A model generated the notes under the pieces. The model saw only the letters and a list, made by a program, of their open reading frames with translations, made no database searches and was not told the origin of the DNA. A program made the translations under genes and the position numbers. A DNA stretch of 64,000 bases from Saccostrea echinata (lineage: Eukaryota): the NCBI RefSeq assembly GCF_033153115.1, contig NW_026889803.1, forward strand, positions 9,858,001 through 9,922,000. The letters run 5' to 3'. This document shows positions 1 to 60,639 of this stretch, piece after piece. Position 1 is the stretch's first letter. The number at the start of each line of letters is the position of its first letter.

Positions 1-398
1 TCGTCTTTGAAAGATGATGAATTTAGAACTTTGAGCGTGTAATGATTAATAAAAATCAAACAAATGATATGAAGTTTAAATCTTGAAAATTAAATAGAAA
101 TGAAAATCAAATTTACAAAATATCTATCTTTAAATTCTTTTGAAACATTAACAATAAATATCTAACTCGAAAATCATAATTCTTCCGTTGTGTCTGTTTG
201 TTATTTTTAAAATCAATTACTACTGAACTAAAATCGTGTTGGACTGAATAGTGAAGAAAAAATAATAATAAAGAAATAATGTGAATCTCTAAAGATTGGT
301 CTAATGTTTTCAAAAAAGTGCGGTATTTATTATAAATTGCATCGAGATCGGCATTACCAAAATAGCTTCTAAAGCGTGTAAATATGAGAAGATTCAAG

Positions 399-716
399 AT
401 GGGGGTGATAAGGGCGATATTCATTTTCTGCTTGTTCAAGACCGCTATGCCTAGTGCGATTGATACTTTCCAATTTTTTGAATTTTGTGACACTAGTGTG
501 TGTAGTTGGATGGGGGAAGGAAAGTACGGGGGATGTCTGCAGACGGATATCCACCAGCTGACATTCAACTATTTTGATTCAAATGGTATGCTAGATTTGA
601 GATGTAGCCATGTGGATGTGATTTATGTGGACAACACACCGTTGAGATGTAAAGATGTAGACCTATTCTTCTTAACTCAGAGACCGCTCACTGTTTATTT
701 GAATGGTGATATGTGT
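399..716 (+). CDS. Exon 1 of a spliced type-I membrane glycoprotein: signal peptide plus 6-Cys ectodomain
   Basis: TATAAA at 331, ATG in good context (AAGATGG) at 399, hydrophobic leader MGVIRAIFIFCLFKTAMPSA, six Cys in the mature part, and a phase-0 donor TGT|GTAAGT at 716/717. Confidence 0.75.
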
Positions 717-1287
717 GTAAGTATTTTATTTTAACCTCATCAAATGAGTATTTAATTACAAAAATAAATGTCTATGTATTAAGAGCTAAGAAATATGATT
801 GATTTGATCATATTTTATTGTGTATGTCAAGTTCTTACAAATTACTAGTACCTTTTCCTGAGAGGTAATAAGCACTGATGTAAATTGTGATGTAAAATGA
901 AATACCTTGTTTGTTTGTTGTTATATCCTTGTCCTACTCCAGAGAGTTATTGACTGTGAATAAATCGCATGCTAAGAACATACATACTAAATTAAAGATA
1001 GCTTGAAAAATGTACTACTAATAATTTAACATACAATATAGGATATTGTTTATTTATATTCATTTGTGTAAACAATACAGTGTATTGATTGCAATGCATT
1101 TAAATTGAAATCAAATATTAAAATCAGATCTGTAATTTTAAAGATATAGCTATAAACACTTTTCACATGAATTCAGTGAAGTGATTTAACTTTGTATACT
1201 TATGTTATATTTGATTTTTAAAACCAATGTAAAACATATATTGACTTGTGATAAAGCTACACTAATTCTGAATAGCAATTTTTGCAG

Positions 1288-1416
1288 CATGTCTCCTCCT
1301 CTAGGAGCACCCGTCCTACCGCCAGTATCAGAAGTACCAAACATCCCACCACCCATACTGCAACCAGTGGTACCACGCGAGCTACCAGTAGCAGCATTTT
1401 AAATGAATTCAGCGAG
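1288..1416 (+). CDS. Mucin-like stalk exon, copy 1 (HVSSSRSTRPTASIRSTKHPTTHTATSGTTRATSSSILNEFSE)
   Basis: TTTTTGCAG acceptor, GAG|GTGATT donor, 129 nt, phase 0-0, and 21 of 43 residues Ser/Thr. Confidence 0.7.
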
Positions 1417-1518
1417 GTGATTTAACATTGTATACTTATATTTGATTTTTAAAACCAATGTAAAACATGTATTGACTTGTGATAAAGCTACACTAATTCT
1501 GAATAGCAATTTTTGCAG

Positions 1519-1647
1519 CATGTCTCCTCGTCTAGGAGCGCCCGTCCTACCGCCAGTATCAGAAGTACCAAACATCCCACCACCCATACTGCAACCAGTG
1601 GTACCACGCGAGCTACCAGTAGCAGCATTTTAAATGAATTCAGCGAG
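1519..1647 (+). CDS. Mucin-like stalk exon, copy 2
   Basis: Same splice sites, 231 bp downstream of copy 1, open in the Ser/Thr frame. Confidence 0.7.
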
Positions 1648-1749
1648 GTGATTTAACATTGTATACTTATATTTGATTTTTAAAACCAATGTAAAACATA
1701 TATTGACTTGTGATAAAGCTACACTAATTCTGAATAGCAATTTTTGCAG

Positions 1750-1878
1750 CATGTCTCCTCGTCTAGGAGCACCCGTCCGACCGCCAGTATCAGAAGTACC
1801 AAACATCCCACCACCCATACTGCAACCAGTGGTACAACGCGAGCTACCAGTAGCAGCATTTTAAATGAAATCAGTGAG
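1750..1878 (+). CDS. Mucin-like stalk exon, copy 3
   Basis: Same splice sites; most substitutions are synonymous in the Ser/Thr frame. Confidence 0.7.
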
Positions 1879-2117
1879 GTGATTTAACATTGTATACTTA
1901 TATTTGATTTTTAAAACCAATATAAAACATATATTGACTTGATAACAAACAAAACTGTTTGAATATGGTATGCTAACATCCCTCCCTTCAAAAAGTAATA
2001 AATAAATAATAAATTTCAAGATTCTAGAGTAGGTAATAAGTGACACACACAATTCAATCAGTTAGTTAACAGTAGACTGAAAAATATCCCTTTGTAAGAA
2101 GATGTATCACTTTGTAG

Positions 2118-2196
2118 ATTGTGGGATTTGACAATGGTGCAAATGAGGGAGACATACATAATGAGGAGATGGGCACCTTCACGACTATTGTGTTAA
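2118..2196 (+). CDS. Juxtamembrane exon (IVGFDNGANEGDIHNEEMGTFTTIVL), start of the TM helix
   Basis: TTTGTAG acceptor, A|GTAAGT donor, 79 nt, phase 0 to 1. Confidence 0.7.
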
Positions 2197-2611
2197 GTAA
2201 GTATTATTCATGACAAGAAAAACATATCAAATGCTTGTTGTATAAAAATGAAAATAATGTATTATTATTTCAGTAGTTTCATCTTGGTAAGAGAACATAA
2301 CTTCACTGGCATGTCGTGGTGTCTTGTGGTAGCAACTTATTATGCTTATGCTTAGCTATGTAGTAGCTATTGGTCTCCTTCTGTTGAAAACAAGTCTTGT
2401 TTGCACTCCATTGGTATTCAATTAATATGTGAAGATTAATCTTAAAAACTTTTTTCCTCAATGCTCTTCAAATATATTACTCACCATCTGCTAATGTGTG
2501 TTGTGTCAAGGTTGCACTACTATGAAAGAGATATTGAAACAGTGAAAAAATGCTCTTGAGGATATTGATAATGGATACCTATGATGATATATTAAAATCT
2601 TAATTTTGTAG

Positions 2612-2865
2612 GTTTTCTTGGACTACTTATATATGTTGGAAATCAAATTATTGACATAAAGAAGAAGTTGATGGAAATCATAACAATTTTGAAAAAATTG
2701 TATGCAATTGTTAAAGGTTTTTGCAAAATGATTTTGAAAGTTTTTAAAGGCTACAAAAATCCAACAATTCAGCACATTCAGAAAGATAATGGTGCACATA
2801 CAAGTAGATATCCACAAAGAGCTAGAAAACAGACTGTTTTCTATGGTGACCCAGTTAAATTTTGA
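2612..2865 (+). CDS. Alternative terminal exon A (SFLGLLIYVGNQ...FYGDPVKF*)
   Basis: TTTTGTAG acceptor, phase 1 compatible with 2196; completes a hydrophobic helix followed by a basic tail. Confidence 0.55.
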
Positions 2866-3035
2866 AAATATGAAACATGCCATTCATAAGAATACATTGC
2901 AACTATATACAGTATCAAGTTTGCAGCTTTAAAATAATTGACCTCTTTGAATGATATATTTTCAAAATTTGTTTGTTTATCAATTAAAAAAATCTTTGTA
3001 GGCTGTAACCATAAGTGTAAAACATTTTATTTCAG

Positions 3036-3232
3036 CTGCTTCATTAATATCATCCTGCCTGGCAATCATATATTTTGTATGTAAAAGCATTGCTTGGCTG
3101 CGAGCTCGTCGTAGAAAAAGGCCATTTTCAGATATAAAAGCATACATTGATGAACAGTTTGAAACTCTCGAAGCCTACAGATTTCGAAATCGCCTTGCAG
3201 GGTTTGGAGAAGAAAATGATACTCTAGTTTAA
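3036..3232 (+). CDS. Alternative terminal exon B (TASLISSCLAIIYFVCKSIAWLRARRRKR...EENDTLV*)
   Basis: TTTTATTTCAG acceptor, phase 1; TM segment, stop-transfer RARRRKR, and a C-terminal x-T-x-V motif. AATAAA signals lie downstream at ~4162 and ~4245. Confidence 0.65.
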
Positions 3233-3384
3233 AATTCCTTTAAAAGTTCTTTTCAATTTGATTATACAGGTATATACAAATATATTTTAAAGATTCAACA
3301 TTACTATATCATCAAAAACATAGTAGTACATTATTATTTTTATTTCATACCAAATGTGTTTACTTTGGAATATAAATGGTAAGA

Positions 3385-3705
3385 TATGCTTACCTTTTAA
3401 TCTGTGTGAAGCTGTTAATTGTTTGCTTATGCTTTTCTTGTGCATTATATATTACCTTTTAAATCATGTTAAGCTGTTTGCTTTTTATGCATCATACATC
3501 ATGCTTATTACTCACCTTTTAGCCCATGTGAAGCTGTTTGCTTATGCTTTTATGCATTATATATCATGCTTATTACTCACCTTTTAGCCCATGTGAAGCT
3601 GTTTGGTTATGCTTTTATGCATTATATATCATGCTTATTACCTACCTCCAAGGCCAAGTGAAGCTGTTTGCTCATGCTTTTATTATACATTATATATCAT
3701 GCCTA
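3385..3705. repeat. 60-65 bp tandem repeat, 5 copies
   Basis: An AAGCTGTT core and TATGCATTATATATCATGCTTATTAC-like segments recur at 60-65 bp spacing. Confidence 0.9.
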
Positions 3706-4468
3706 CAACCTTGTATTGAAATAATCTAGCTTGTCACAGATAAAGAGTAGTATGCTCCCCTTTTACCTTCCTTAATCAAAGTAAGGTTTTCTTTGTTTTT
3801 GTTTTTATATTTTTGATTCATATGATTCAGCTAATACTAATGAATATGTACATATTTGATTTTAAAGTGATTCCGTTCTTTTGTTCAAAGTTAGTCTTGC
3901 TTCATAAAATGTTTGCTTTTAAACATTTAATTCAGTGATAATCATTGGATGTACATTATTGATTTCATAATCTTTGTTCTATGTTGTTGCTCTATATTGT
4001 GATTCATTACTACTTTGTTTACATCTTTACATAGAAATGTGCCAAAGATCTATTGAATTATACTTTTGAATATTTTGTATATACATGTACTGTGATTTGA
4101 TGATTTTTAAATATATATATATTTTTTTGTTGACATGGCATGTTAACAAGATCTGGTTTTTAATAAATGTTTAAATGATATACTGTATTCTTTATCCTTC
4201 AGCATGATTGAAATGATGTCCCTGTTTAAATCTCTTTTACGTTGAATAAACGATGTCTTAAAAGGTATTGACTGAAATAGCATTGTGTTGAGCAAAAGGG
4301 TATTGACATTGTTTCACTCAAAATAAAGGTCATGAATAGTTTTTGATCATCTGATAAGGATTATCAGTGTGTGGTATGAATATAAAAGCTGTTTGACTAA
4401 CAAAGTTACTTGTTAACCTGTTTAATGGTATTGAAATTCTTAGACATGTGTATGTCTAATAAGGATAG

Positions 4469-4499
<31 letters not shown>

Positions 4500-4929
4500 C
4501 AAAACAAAAAAAAAAACAAAACAAAACAAAACAAACAAACTTTGCTAAGAGTTATCTATCTTTGCGTGTACTTCATAAGCCTTTGAACTGAATCTCCTAT
4601 TTCAGAGAGAATATAAACATTTCTATTTACCCCTCATAAATCTTGTAACAAAGAATGTGTTTATTGCATATTTATATTTTCATTGCATTTGTCATTTGTG
4701 GATGCATTTAAATCATACAGTTCAAAGTCTTCTAGAAGTTCTTTGGATTTTGGCTCATTTACACAGTGATATAAGTATTAAGACATTAAGCCTTCAATTG
4801 ATTATAAAGTGTAAGTATGTGAGCCTTCTAACTTATTTTACATCTTTGGTATAAACAAAAATAGAAATGGGTGGAGTTTAAGACTAAGCCTTCAGTTGAT
4901 TGTATGTTTTCATATAGTCACTGCTTGGG

Positions 4930-5420
4930 GTTGGCATGTGAGCCTTTGAACTTAATCTACATATTTGGTAGACATTATATAGTACAGTAGGCGAGGCTAG
5001 CCTCTGAGCCTTTTACTTTAATTTACACACTTGGTAAACTTTATATAGTACAGTGGGTGGGTTAGCCTCTGAGCCTTTTAATGTAATTTACATACTTGGT
5101 AAACATTCTCTGACTAGCCTCTGAGCCTTTTAATTTAATTTACATACTTGGTAAACATTTTATAGTACAGTGGGTGGGGATTAGCCTCTGAGCCTTTTAA
5201 TGTAATTTACATACTTGGTAAACATTTTATAGTACAGTGGGTGGGGATTAGCCTCTGAGCCTTTTGGTTTAATTTACATATCTGGTAGACATTATATAGT
5301 ACAGTGGGTGGAGTACATACTTGGTAAACATTATATAGTACAGTGGGTGGGGATTAGCCTCTGAGCCTTTTGGTTTAATATACATATCTGGTAGACATTA
5401 TATAGTACAGTGGGTGGAGT
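4930..5420. repeat. Subterminal ~66-68 bp direct repeats (probable TIR-internal repeats)
   Basis: AGTACAGTGGGTGG..TTAGCCTCTGAGCCTTT..TTTACATACTTGGTAAACATT recurs about 7 times, some copies partial. Confidence 0.9.
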
Positions 5421-5578
5421 TGATGTGTGCTAGTATCCCCACCCTACTACTACTTCATACGTGTATTAGTTAGGTCAGCTGCCCCTTACATTACGTTCTA
5501 AATATGTTTAATAATTCAATATAGCATTGAACCAGACAGCTGATTGTTATTCGGAATTAAACAATCTTTCCTTAACAG

Positions 5579-5681: not shown

Positions 5682-6147
5682 GTATGAACGATTCTCTTAC
5701 ATCCACTGAACGGTCCTTTATCAGTACTTAAACACAGCTAAGCAAGCCACCTAGATGTATTAATAGATTTCTTGAGCAGTTGCTAATCCATCAATGAGAC
5801 ATACAATGACGTAGATATCAATAACACAATATTTAACGTACTTAATTTTACATTACTCGTATATGATTATTTAAACAGATAAACAATGAAATGTTAAATT
5901 CTTTCTTTGTAAGTTCGGGAAATAACGATGCATTTATTGCAAAAAGAAAACAACAACAAAAAAACAACAAAAAACGCATCGGTATTTCGGTGATGAATTC
6001 CTATTTCATTTTTTCCAGTACATCCACCTGGAGCAACTGCTTCACTGGACAATGAAAAATCATAGTCACTGCAAAATAATGAAGATATATTAATATGCTT
6101 TATAGTTTGAAGAAATAACATTTATCAAAACTTCATTTTATGTCCAG

Positions 6148-6573
6148 GTTTTCGCCAAGACGTTTAGAAGAATACTAAAAGTAATATCAGACAACGACCC
6201 AAAGGAAGTGAGATGTATGAACAAATCCTATGTTGCAAAACGAGGATGGGTTTTTGAGTTCAATAATGTGACGTTTTTCATAACAACATTTGGACCGTTT
6301 TATCCAAAAACAAACAGCAGATATGCGTTCGGTTGTGAAAACTGCTTTATTTTACTTCAACCGGAGTTGAGTTTTGCGCTTCATGATTTATCGCCAAGCA
6401 GTTCAGAGACAAGTTACGAAAACCCTACAACAGAAAGGGACAGAATTAGGTGTGCATACAGCAAGGCGGGGAGACCGTATATAATACCACGTGATATTAC
6501 TCAGCCAATGGCATGGGACATGATAAAGCCCATCGCAGATGATGATGCAATCATTCAGTGGTGGACACAATAA
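6148..6573 (+). CDS. Last exon of a YqcI/YcgG-like protein (5' exons outside the window)
   Basis: TGTCCAG acceptor and 142 codons to TAA. The motifs W.FEF...FFITTFGPFY...SRY...LLQP..SF and R..IR recall the YqcI/YcgG C-terminal half. Confidence 0.7.
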   Translation, partial: VFAKTFRRILKVISDNDPKEVRCMNKSYVAKRGWVFEFNNVTFFITTFGPFYPKTNSRYAFGCENCFILLQPELSFALHDLSPSSSETSYENPTTERDRIRCAYSKAGRPYIIPRDITQPMAWDMIKPIADDDAIIQWWTQ

Positions 6574-58751: not shown

Positions 58752-60377
58752 TTATTCTGTATATTTGATGACCGTCACATTTCCACTCTTGTACTCCCCC
58801 ACCCACAGTCTTCCCAGTGAGTCCACACTCAGTGCTCCACAGAAATCCAGACTACGGAGAAACTGACCGTCCTGATCAATGATGTGGGTACAGGAATTCC
58901 CGATATCCTTTACTATTATACGACCAGCAGAGTCTGTAACAATACTGGTAGGATTAAACTGCTTCTTCATCGATTGTTGTCCTTTATATCGGAATCGGAG
59001 TTTTCCTACCTTGTTCACCACAACAACATCCTTGCCATTGCAATCAGAGGCACATATATCACCGTTGTTGTTCTCCGCCACAAAGAGCATCTTATCTCCT
59101 TCTTTATATAGTGGGTTACCTTGGTCGTCCTTCTCTATCTCCTGCTTTATTGTTTGACTTTCATAGCGGACAATTTTATAATGTTCACCATTAGATGTGC
59201 GCATACTAACCAGTAAGTCACCAGATTGTGTGCAACACAGTCCTCCTGCTTTCCATCCCTGTGGTGCTGTGATATGTGCTGTTGTATGGTGGACATCATA
59301 AATTACTTTATTTACTACATCAGTGTATAGCAGATGTCCTTCTTTTGAAATTGAAATGTCACCAGGATAATTTAGACAAGTGGAAGTAACGGTCTCCTGT
59401 ACAGAACCCTGTATGTTAAAACGAGTAATGGTTTTATTCCTCCCCGTTATCCACACCTCCTCTGTATTAGCACATGCCATCCTCATCAACGGTGTTATTC
59501 CAGTGTGGAAGGCTGAGATTTCCACGGCCTTGTCTAGGAGCTCATTGGATACATCTAATCTGTAGATCGGTTCTGTTTGGATCTTGGGTTCCTTTAGTTT
59601 TCCGAAAACGTGGTAAAGTTTGCCTTTATCTATGTCCTTGGACACGAACATTGGTAGTTCCAGTTCTATATGTAAAGGAAGCTTAAGATACTTCTGAACA
59701 TTGCTTTCATATTTTGTGATGTAACCAACATTCTTGGATTGAGAGATCTCTTTGTTTTGCAGAGAAATTTCATTAAGGCTTGCAAGAACATTTTTGATCT
59801 CCTTCTGGTATTCTTTTGATTTCTTGATGCCATTTCCTCTCATTTCTGCAATATCTCTCTTGTTCTTTGCAACAATTTCTTCAATAAATCGCTGCCATTT
59901 TTGTCCATGCTCTGTAACTGATTGTTCTAATTCGTCACATTTAGCATTTAAAGTCGCTAATTTGGATTCTATTTCTGTATCTGCTTTTTCAAATTTTGGA
60001 ATGATATCGTCTTTTAGATAAGCTGTGTCCTTCTCCACAAGCTTTTTCATGTCATCAACGATGTCCTTAATTTCAATAATTCTATGACCGTTATGGGCTC
60101 CGCTGAGACATTTAAAGCAAACTTCTACATCACAATTCTGACATTTAACAGTGCACTTTTCGCCACTATGGGCTTTGCAGTTTGGAAATGAAAGGTGGAA
60201 TTTTCTCTCTCGGTATTTGACAACCTCGTGATTAGAGGATGATGACGTCATATAGTGTTTTCCGACACATTCTTCGCATAAGTTGACCTGGCAGGGATTA
60301 CAGTGAAGGAGGGCGGGTCTCCTGTCACAGTAGTGACAAAGGATGACTTCCTGTGCTTTAGTTGTACCGGTGGCCAT
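58752..60377 (-). CDS. TRIM-like copy 3, intact: RING-less B-box1/B-box2/coiled-coil/NHL-like beta-propeller protein, 541 aa
   Basis: CHYC..HCNPC..LCEEC..H and CKAH..C..CQNC..VCFKC..HNGH B-boxes, a heptad region, and propeller repeats. One coding exon with an acceptor at ~60413; ATG at 60377 (the track starts at an upstream TTG). Confidence 0.95.
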   Translation of the reverse strand: MATGTTKAQEVILCHYCDRRPALLHCNPCQVNLCEECVGKHYMTSSSSNHEVVKYRERKFHLSFPNCKAHSGEKCTVKCQNCDVEVCFKCLSGAHNGHRIIEIKDIVDDMKKLVEKDTAYLKDDIIPKFEKADTEIESKLATLNAKCDELEQSVTEHGQKWQRFIEEIVAKNKRDIAEMRGNGIKKSKEYQKEIKNVLASLNEISLQNKEISQSKNVGYITKYESNVQKYLKLPLHIELELPMFVSKDIDKGKLYHVFGKLKEPKIQTEPIYRLDVSNELLDKAVEISAFHTGITPLMRMACANTEEVWITGRNKTITRFNIQGSVQETVTSTCLNYPGDISISKEGHLLYTDVVNKVIYDVHHTTAHITAPQGWKAGGLCCTQSGDLLVSMRTSNGEHYKIVRYESQTIKQEIEKDDQGNPLYKEGDKMLFVAENNNGDICASDCNGKDVVVVNKVGKLRFRYKGQQSMKKQFNPTSIVTDSAGRIIVKDIGNSCTHIIDQDGQFLRSLDFCGALSVDSLGRLWVGEYKSGNVTVIKYTE

Positions 60378-60639
60378 CTTTGGCAATGTTACAAAGTTCC
60401 TACCAATTCAATCTAAATACAGTTAAATTACTCAATAAATTCTCAGTTCAGGTCTTAATATGTGTAACTTTTGCTTAAAATTCCATTCAAAGGAGGGGAG
60501 TACAAGTTAATTTACAAAACCTTAATCTTTAACTGTTTAATGAAGAGGTTCACGTGTATAATTGCATTTTTCATGAACTGTGTATGTGTTTCACGTAATG
60601 TACTGTATTCAATTATCTTCTCTATTGAGAAGACATCTC

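What the first reader, a model, noticed from the sequence alone, without database searches (positions are those of the whole stretch)
2118..3232. Alternative terminal exons swap half the TM helix and the whole cytoplasmic tail; one ends in a class-I PDZ-binding motif
Seen: the exon ending at 2196 (phase 1) stops mid-TM. Two downstream phase-1 exons (2612-2865 and 3036-3232) each complete a hydrophobic helix followed by a basic cluster, and exon B ends EENDTLV*. A third, weaker path via a 13-nt microexon (2274-2286) and 2356-2425 gives a nearly tail-less form ending ...TPLVFN*. Known: x-S/T-x-V-COOH binds class-I PDZ domains and is used by viral proteins such as adenovirus E4-ORF1 and HPV E6. 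Inference: one ectodomain with switchable signalling or trafficking tails.
Basis: partly seen in the sequence, partly recalled or inferred. Interest (0 to 1): 0.7.

Follow-up and report, generated by a model that had tools for sequence, protein, structure and literature searches.

The report
Oyster provirus glycoprotein with swappable tails
A spliced gene inside a virus-like Maverick element in an oyster genome carries a row of alternative last exons that likely let one surface protein be made either without a membrane anchor or anchored with different inner tails, but in the RNA examined this copy made only the tail-less form.

Summary
The gene lies in the right arm of an 18.6-kb Maverick/Polinton (AGT…ACT termini, TCATAC duplication). 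It encodes a signal peptide, a Cys domain, three S/T-rich stalk exons and half a membrane helix ending at phase-1 donor 2196.

RNA contigs (4 of 4 runs) and both RefSeq models splice 2196 to 2274/2277 and read on to a stop at 2290, giving a tail-less …IVSSW. Exons A and B then lie in the 3′UTR. No junction to A, B or exon C was seen, though contigs drop rare forms.

Family evidence supports the swap. Nine of 20 paralog loci carry two or three such phase-1 exons in varying order. Exon B has dN/dS 0.14 against a diverged copy that also ends ENDTLV. Three RefSeq isoforms of a Crassostrea virginica homologue share 186 residues and then switch helix half and tail; one tail is A-type.

Best reading: an alternative 3′-acceptor cassette that likely yields secreted and anchored forms of a fast-evolving viral surface protein. 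PDZ binding is untested. Partly supported; new variant; interest 0.6.

The parts
384..716 (+). Exon 1: in-frame ATGs at 384 and 399, hydrophobic signal-peptide-like stretch (judged by eye), Cys-rich domain of about 90 aa; phase-0 donor
   Evidence: (joint 716>1288 in 4 of 4 runs); RefSeq models start at a later Met (447), without the signal peptide
1288..1416 (+). S/T-rich stalk exon 1 (129 nt, phase 0) in a 231-bp tandem repeat
   Evidence: stalk is 48% Ser+Thr
1519..1647 (+). S/T-rich stalk exon 2
1750..1878 (+). S/T-rich stalk exon 3
   Evidence: joint 1878>2118 in 4 of 4 runs
2118..2196 (+). Common exon: juxtamembrane segment and first half of the hydrophobic helix; phase-1 donor
2274..2290 (+). 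Proximal tandem (NAGNAG) acceptor 2274/2277; read-through to TAA 2288-2290 gives the tail-less end; unused GTAAG donor after 2286
   Evidence: (2274 in 3 runs, 2277 in 1)
2356..2425 (+). Exon C candidate (hydrophobic, near tail-less); in frame only through the 13-nt piece; broken in close paralogs and in 3 of 4 RNA alleles
2612..2865 (+). Exon A: short helix half, amphipathic helix, basic R-Y-P-x-R-x-R-K...Y-G motif; family-conserved type; no junction seen at this copy
   Evidence: (33% identical to the C. virginica X1 tail, E 1e-14)
3036..3232 (+). Exon B: helix half, basic stop-transfer cluster, conserved [FY]-R-x-R-N-R-L motif, class I PDZ-type end T-L-V; no junction seen at this copy
   Evidence: (dN/dS 0.14)
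2291..4167 (+). 3'UTR of the observed transcript, containing C, A and B; contigs reach 4095; AATAAA at 4162, ATTAAA at 2983 between A and B
4780..5454 (.). Right terminal inverted repeat of the Maverick, ending ...ACTACTACT
5455..5460 (.). 6-bp target-site duplication TCATAC, also found before the left terminus 18.6 kb upstream

Best explanation
This is a spliced accessory gene of an oyster Maverick/Polinton in which one donor (2196) faces a row of alternative 3' acceptors: the nearest gives the tail-less, likely secreted form seen in RNA, while acceptors A and B would give membrane-anchored forms with different tails, likely as minor or condition-dependent products. Shown: the element context, the splicing of the ectodomain exons, use of the proximal acceptor, and conservation of A- and B-type exons across diverged elements. 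Annotated in a relative: the same switch as three RefSeq isoforms. Inferred: use of A and B at this copy; secretion (a GPI anchor is not excluded) of the short form; PDZ-scaffold binding by B; membrane or nucleic-acid contact by A's amphipathic helix and basic motif; and a role as a host-interaction or immune-evasion surface protein, much as adenovirus E3 glycoproteins act in anchored and soluble forms.
For: Element: inverted termini and TCATAC duplication; integrase, adenain-like protease and A32-like ATPase upstream. Family: 25 exon-1 matches in the genome. 9 of 20 paralog stretches hold two or three exon types, with order A-B in some and B-A in others, which rules out consecutive use. 25 of 26 picked exons keep an AG giving a phase-1 hydrophobic start. 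B vs L033: 45 of 64 residues identical, dN/dS 0.14, Fisher p 3e-8; A 0.34-0.56. C. virginica LOC111109991 X1/X2/X3 share 186 residues and then diverge into A-, P- and D-type tails; paralog L066 has the same three types in tandem with pPolB-like sequence upstream. C. gigas isoforms diverge after the same junction, most into short ends with no basic tail. In four paralogous elements the capsid is 88-92% identical while exon 1 is 45-47%. RNA alleles carry only missense changes in A and B.
Against: 0 of 4 RNA runs (3 samples, 2 studies) show a junction into A or B; three single contigs run unspliced from 2274/2277 to 3527. Both RefSeq models of this locus use only the proximal acceptor. Close paralogs are decaying: B acceptor lost in L004, frameshifts in A and B in L005. 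The element looks young (close copies 93-97% identical), so open frames here need not reflect current selection. DNA-only codon-position tests were weak (p 0.02 for B, 0.035 for A), a non-coding control gave p 0.043, and tests against L043 showed no bias. 10 of 20 paralog stretches showed none of these exon types. The C. virginica evidence is annotation; neither its DNA nor its reads were seen, and its place in a Maverick was not checked.
Confidence: 0.6

Rival explanations
1. A and B were alternative exons in the ancestral virus but are silent fossils in this integrated copy, which makes only the tail-less product.
For: Only the proximal acceptor appears in 4 of 4 runs and in 2 of 2 RefSeq models. 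Sister copies are losing A, B and C. The element looks young, so intact frames are expected without selection.
Against: Contigs drop rare variants. Both acceptors and frames are intact, and expressed alleles show only missense changes. A homologue is annotated with three such isoforms.
Confidence: 0.3
2. The gene is a captured or domesticated oyster receptor family with host-type alternative tails, and its position in Mavericks is incidental.
For: It has spliceosomal introns and host transcription. 8 of 18 upstream stretches had no Maverick core-gene hit within about 10 kb. The named exon-1-type homologues are all from oysters.
Against: The gene lies between the element's termini. 7 of the 9 multi-exon paralogs have pPolB-like sequence upstream, and three show a terminal-repeat match about 5 kb downstream. 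No host protein family matches.
Confidence: 0.07
3. A and B are separate small ORFs translated from the long 3' region, or consecutive exons of one multi-pass protein.
For: Both lie in the observed transcript, and A has an internal Met.
Against: Each has a conserved phase-1 acceptor and its own stop, the order swaps between elements, and the C. virginica isoforms join them to the ectodomain.
Confidence: 0.03

Closest known systems
Maverick/Polinton (adintovirus, polintovirus) elements
   Same: Inverted termini with AGT...ACT ends, 6-bp duplication, integrase, adenain-like protease, ATPase, 18.6 kb (defining features from passages of PMC8097293).
   Different: PMC8097293 reports no introns in the genes of intact vertebrate elements. 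PMC8502044 section 3.2 lists PLA2X, GasderminX and cupiennin-like membrane-active genes, but no spliced type I glycoprotein. Here an accessory gene has five or more exons and an acceptor cassette.
Adenovirus E3 glycoproteins, e.g. E3/49K
   Same: Type I glycoprotein of a related virus lineage in a variable region, with anchored and soluble forms (passages of PMC13437282). Alternative 3' acceptors sharing a poly(A) site in adenovirus units are recalled, not checked.
   Different: E3/49K becomes soluble by shedding, not splicing, and has Ig-like CR1 domains. The domain here found no structural match, so homology is not shown.
Host receptors with spliced tails (CEACAM1, CD46; NCAM recalled)
   Same: One ectodomain with alternative tails or soluble forms (PMC11646291 and PMC12043084 seen only as search listings).
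   Different: Here the switch falls in the middle of the helix, so each exon supplies its own helix half, and the gene is carried by a virus-like element.
Viral class I PDZ-binding motifs (Ad E4-ORF1 TLV, HTLV-1 Env SSL, HPV E6)
   Same: B ends T-L-V, the same triplet that PMC4810129 lists for E4-ORF1; the C. virginica X2 tail ends S-S-L, as listed for HTLV-1 Env.
   Different: No binding data, and the B form was not seen in RNA at this copy.

Membership tests
Maverick/Polinton | Terminal inverted repeats with (AGT)n...(ACT)n ends | tested here: met
Maverick/Polinton | 6-bp target-site duplication | tested here: met
   TCATAC on both sides
Maverick/Polinton | Retroviral-type integrase | tested here: met
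   L071 ORF hits PHROG transposase at E 8e-13; the C6 copy hits Pfam Chromo, and rve below its cutoff
Maverick/Polinton | Adenain-like cysteine protease | tested here: met
   Peptidase_C5, E 4e-5, above the curated cutoff
Maverick/Polinton | A32-like packaging ATPase | tested here: inconclusive
   Pox_A32, E 2e-4, 21.4 bits against a cutoff of 22.8
Maverick/Polinton | Protein-primed PolB and double jelly-roll capsid | tested here: inconclusive
   No polymerase or capsid family hit in Pfam or PHROGs; these labels rest on position, size and recalled motifs; the PolB-like sequence is in three ORF pieces
Intact vertebrate Mavericks (PMC8097293) | Intronless genes | tested here: not met
   GT-AG joints in RNA for this accessory gene; the core genes were not tested
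Alternative terminal exons | Two or more acceptors used from one donor at this locus, with different products | tested here: inconclusive
   Only 2274/2277 seen; contigs cannot show absence; met in annotation for a C. virginica homologue
Alternative terminal exons | Each exon has its own poly(A) site | tested here: inconclusive
   ATTAAA at 2983 after A, AATAAA at 4162 after B; contigs run through both exons
Class I PDZ ligand | C-terminal S/T-x-hydrophobic | tested here: met
   B ends T-L-V, as does L033; 4 of 10 full-length B/P/D tails end [ST]-x-[VL], against 19 of 593 background ORF ends; the tails are related, not independent
Class I PDZ ligand | Binding to a PDZ domain | not testable with these tools
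   Needs a pull-down or peptide assay
GPI-anchored protein (short form) | Omega site, spacer and hydrophobic C-terminal tail | not testable with these tools
   Only about 11 hydrophobic residues, best 19-aa hydropathy 0.62; no predictor available

The most novel reading that the evidence does not exclude
Oyster polintoviruses run an adenovirus-like splice switch: while the element sits quiet in the host, the nearest acceptor makes a secreted decoy, and during active replication distal acceptors make a PDZ-anchored signalling form and an amphipathic, basic-tailed form of the same fast-evolving surface protein. This would be regulated alternative splicing of a surface glycoprotein in a Maverick, which my searches did not find in print.
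Probability: 0.25. Interest if true: 0.8.

Novelty: new variant of a known kind. Interest (0 to 1): 0.6.

Why it matters
Whether Mavericks are true animal viruses, and how they deal with host cells, is an open question. A spliced surface-glycoprotein gene that diverges far faster than the capsid, with conserved alternative anchors and tails, points to host-surface interaction. It also shows that ORF-only annotation of these elements misses intron-containing cargo. The claim can be tested with existing oyster RNA reads, and it explains a set of 'uncharacterized' oyster RefSeq genes as likely viral cargo.

Tried and rejected
No run was on record as RNA; the GT-AG joints show spliced RNA. Laying four runs on paralog L053 gave no cover of its gene, so its splicing could not be read. 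Holes in run X5 around 2559-2643 prove nothing.

Pfam gave no meaningful family for exon 1, A, B or the full homologues (A had only weak chance-level hits); PHROGs gave none. The exon-1 model (pLDDT 77.7, pTM 0.64) had no match in BFVD or PDB by Foldseek, and best Z 3.4 by VIA-align; weak LRR and solenoid rows are only a lead. The ESM Atlas gave no usable hit. Three large multidomain hits (P0010, P0030, P0031) are unrelated bacterial-type repeat proteins and were dropped.

No relatives were found in viral or metagenome contigs, and no earlier scan findings. A multi-pass reading was rejected because the exon order swaps and each exon has its own stop. The codon-position DNA test was too weak to use, since its non-coding control also passed. 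Complex prediction was not used, because a short peptide and a host PDZ domain do not fit the tool.

Full report
OBSERVATION. The 79-nt exon 2118-2196 ends in phase 1, in the middle of a hydrophobic run. Exon A (2612-2865) and exon B (3036-3232) have AG acceptors and open phase-1 frames of 83 and 64 codons, and B ends ENDTLV-stop. The 13-nt piece 2274-2286 has a GTAAG donor, and 2356-2425 ends TPLVFN-stop. Two of 5 acceptor-like sites in 2200-3300 open such long hydrophobic-start frames, against 5 of 718 in the rest of the window.

CONTEXT. The genome is 923 Mb, and the locus matches Saccostrea echinata LOC133171708 (name). Upstream of the window lie an integrase, capsid-like ORFs, an adenain-like protease, an A32-like ATPase and a PolB-like gene. 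The capsid and PolB labels rest on position and recalled motifs, because no family model hit them. The window's repeat at 4780-5454 is inverted 18.6 kb upstream, the ends read AGTAGT and ACTACT, and TCATAC flanks both sides. These are the Maverick end features given in passages of PMC8097293. The gene therefore lies in the right arm of an endogenous Maverick.

RNA AT THIS COPY. Four runs (3 samples, 2 studies; all contigs; 'RNA' is the tool's guess, but the joints are GT-AG) show 716>1288, joints among the three stalk exons, and 1878>2118. They then show 2196>2274 in 3 of 4 runs or 2196>2277 in 1 of 4. In three runs a single contig continues unspliced to 3527; the fourth run is in pieces. Zero of 4 show 2196>2612, 2196>3036 or 2286>2356. 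The product ends IVSSW or ISSW at TAA 2288-2290, exactly as in the two RefSeq models. Its best 19-residue hydropathy is 0.62, too low for a membrane span, so secretion is inferred; a GPI anchor could not be tested. Contigs drop rare variants, so minor use of A or B remains open. Exon C loses one base in 3 of 4 runs and has a stop in both close paralogs; the A and B alleles differ only by missense changes. Laying four runs on paralog L053 gave no cover of its gene.

FAMILY IN THE GENOME. Exon 1 has 25 matches among 30 candidates scored. I fetched 20 stretches around these matches, not counting the window and its two close copies. Nine hold two or three recognisable exon types (named A, B, P and D here), one holds a weak single A, and 10 hold none. 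The order is A-B in the window and L033, B-A in L052/53/69, P-A in L051/54/61 (L051 also has a decayed B), and D-P-A in L066. Of 26 exons picked by homology or inspection, 25 keep an AG that opens a phase-1 hydrophobic frame; many are truncated by stops or frameshifts, and L004 has lost B's acceptor. Ten of 18 upstream stretches have Maverick core-gene hits, one of which likely belongs to a neighbouring copy; 7 of the 9 multi-exon loci have PolB-like sequence upstream. In four of these elements the capsid is 88-92% identical to this element's while exon 1 is 45-47% identical.

SELECTION. Exon B against L033 has 45 of 64 residues identical, dN/dS 0.14 and Fisher p 3e-8. Exon A gives 0.34-0.56 in four comparisons (Fisher p 0.02 for the one tested). 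These used protein-guided alignments. A DNA-only codon-position test was weak (p 0.02 for B, 0.035 for A), a non-coding control also passed (p 0.043), and the broken L043 copy showed no bias. The signal reflects the lineage's past, not necessarily this copy, which looks young (close copies 93-97% identical).

OTHER OYSTERS. The representative search returned 31 proteins; 28 are exon-1-type domains, the named ones all from oysters, and 3 were dropped as unrelated. C. virginica LOC111109991 isoforms X1, X2 and X3 share their first 186 residues, up to mid-helix, and then carry three different helix halves and tails. X1 is 33% identical to exon A (E 1e-14), X2 matches L051's P exon (E 8e-11), and X3 matches L066's D exon. 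C. gigas isoforms diverge after the same junction, most into short ends with no basic tail; their I-H-M-V-R-N end resembles read-through of the window's 2286 donor, which is an inference without C. gigas DNA. That RefSeq isoforms usually rest on RNA-supported introns is recalled; I did not see those reads or check their genomic context.

PDZ MOTIF. T-L-V fits class I and is the triplet listed for adenovirus E4-ORF1 (passages of PMC4810129). Of 10 full-length B/P/D tails (window B, L033 B, L053 B, L051 P, L061 P, L066 P, L066 D, C. virginica X2 and X3, P0053), 4 end [ST]-x-[VL], a fifth ends S-F-F, and 9 end in a hydrophobic residue. The background is 19 of 593 and 223 of 593. None of 6 distinct full-length A tails fits class I. 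The tails are related, so this is suggestive only, and binding is untested.

MECHANISM. One donor competes for several acceptors. The nearest is the default and gives an unanchored ectodomain (splicing shown, secretion inferred). Acceptor B would complete a type I helix with a stop-transfer cluster, a conserved R-x-R-N-R-L motif and a PDZ-type end. Acceptor A would complete a shorter helix followed by an amphipathic helix (hydrophobic moment 0.63) and a basic motif. A role at the host cell surface is inferred from the architecture and the fast divergence. The ectodomain model found no structural match. Odds: working cassette 0.6, fossil exons at this copy 0.3, host gene 0.07, separate ORFs 0.03.

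WHAT IS KNOWN. PMC8097293 (passages) reports no introns in intact vertebrate Mavericks. PMC8502044 (passages and section 3.2) lists other membrane-active cargo. 10.1101/2025.04.19.649669 (passages) finds polintovirus regions abundant in bivalves but ignored introns. PMC11957031 (passages) reports introner insertions in dinoflagellate elements. PMC13437282 (passages) describes adenovirus E3/49K. Searches found no description of this gene or of alternative splicing of Maverick cargo. Subscription papers, Repbase and supplements were not seen and could hold one.

VERDICT. Observation confirmed; interpretation partly supported; new variant of a known kind; interest 0.6.

Noticed in passing
window 6106-6573 (+): Exon or ORF resembling the YqcI/YcgG family (Pfam E 5e-6, just under its cutoff), outside the element.
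   Followed up: partly
window 15698-17237, 22122-23315, 58752-60407 (-): TRIM-like B-box/coiled-coil/NHL genes; the last hits B-box and NHL in Pfam and is one ORF, the first two are in pieces and were judged by eye.
   Followed up: partly
window 1167-1941: The stalk is built by tandem duplication of a 231-bp exon+intron unit: 3 copies here and 1 in each close paralog. Homologue isoforms also differ in stalk repeat number.
   Followed up: partly
window 384-447: RefSeq models start at Met 447 and so lack the signal peptide; RNA contigs begin at 388-413, and two cover ATG 399.
   Followed up: partly
L059:7728-8219, L063:2030-2452: A different subfamily has a whole helix plus tail in one ORF ending T-S-F, again S/T-x-hydrophobic.
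   Followed up: no
L006:4258-8215: The PolB-like gene of this element is in three ORF pieces; whether these are introns or decay was not tested.
   Followed up: no
window 3454-3702: A 65-bp tandem repeat in the 3'UTR has acceptor-like ends; similar sequence follows exon B in L043-L046.
   Followed up: no
window 2809-2850 (exon A end): The basic R-Y-P-x-R-x-R-K...Y-G motif, kept in A-type exons across genera, recalls arginine-rich chromatin-binding motifs of other viruses (recalled, untested).
   Followed up: no
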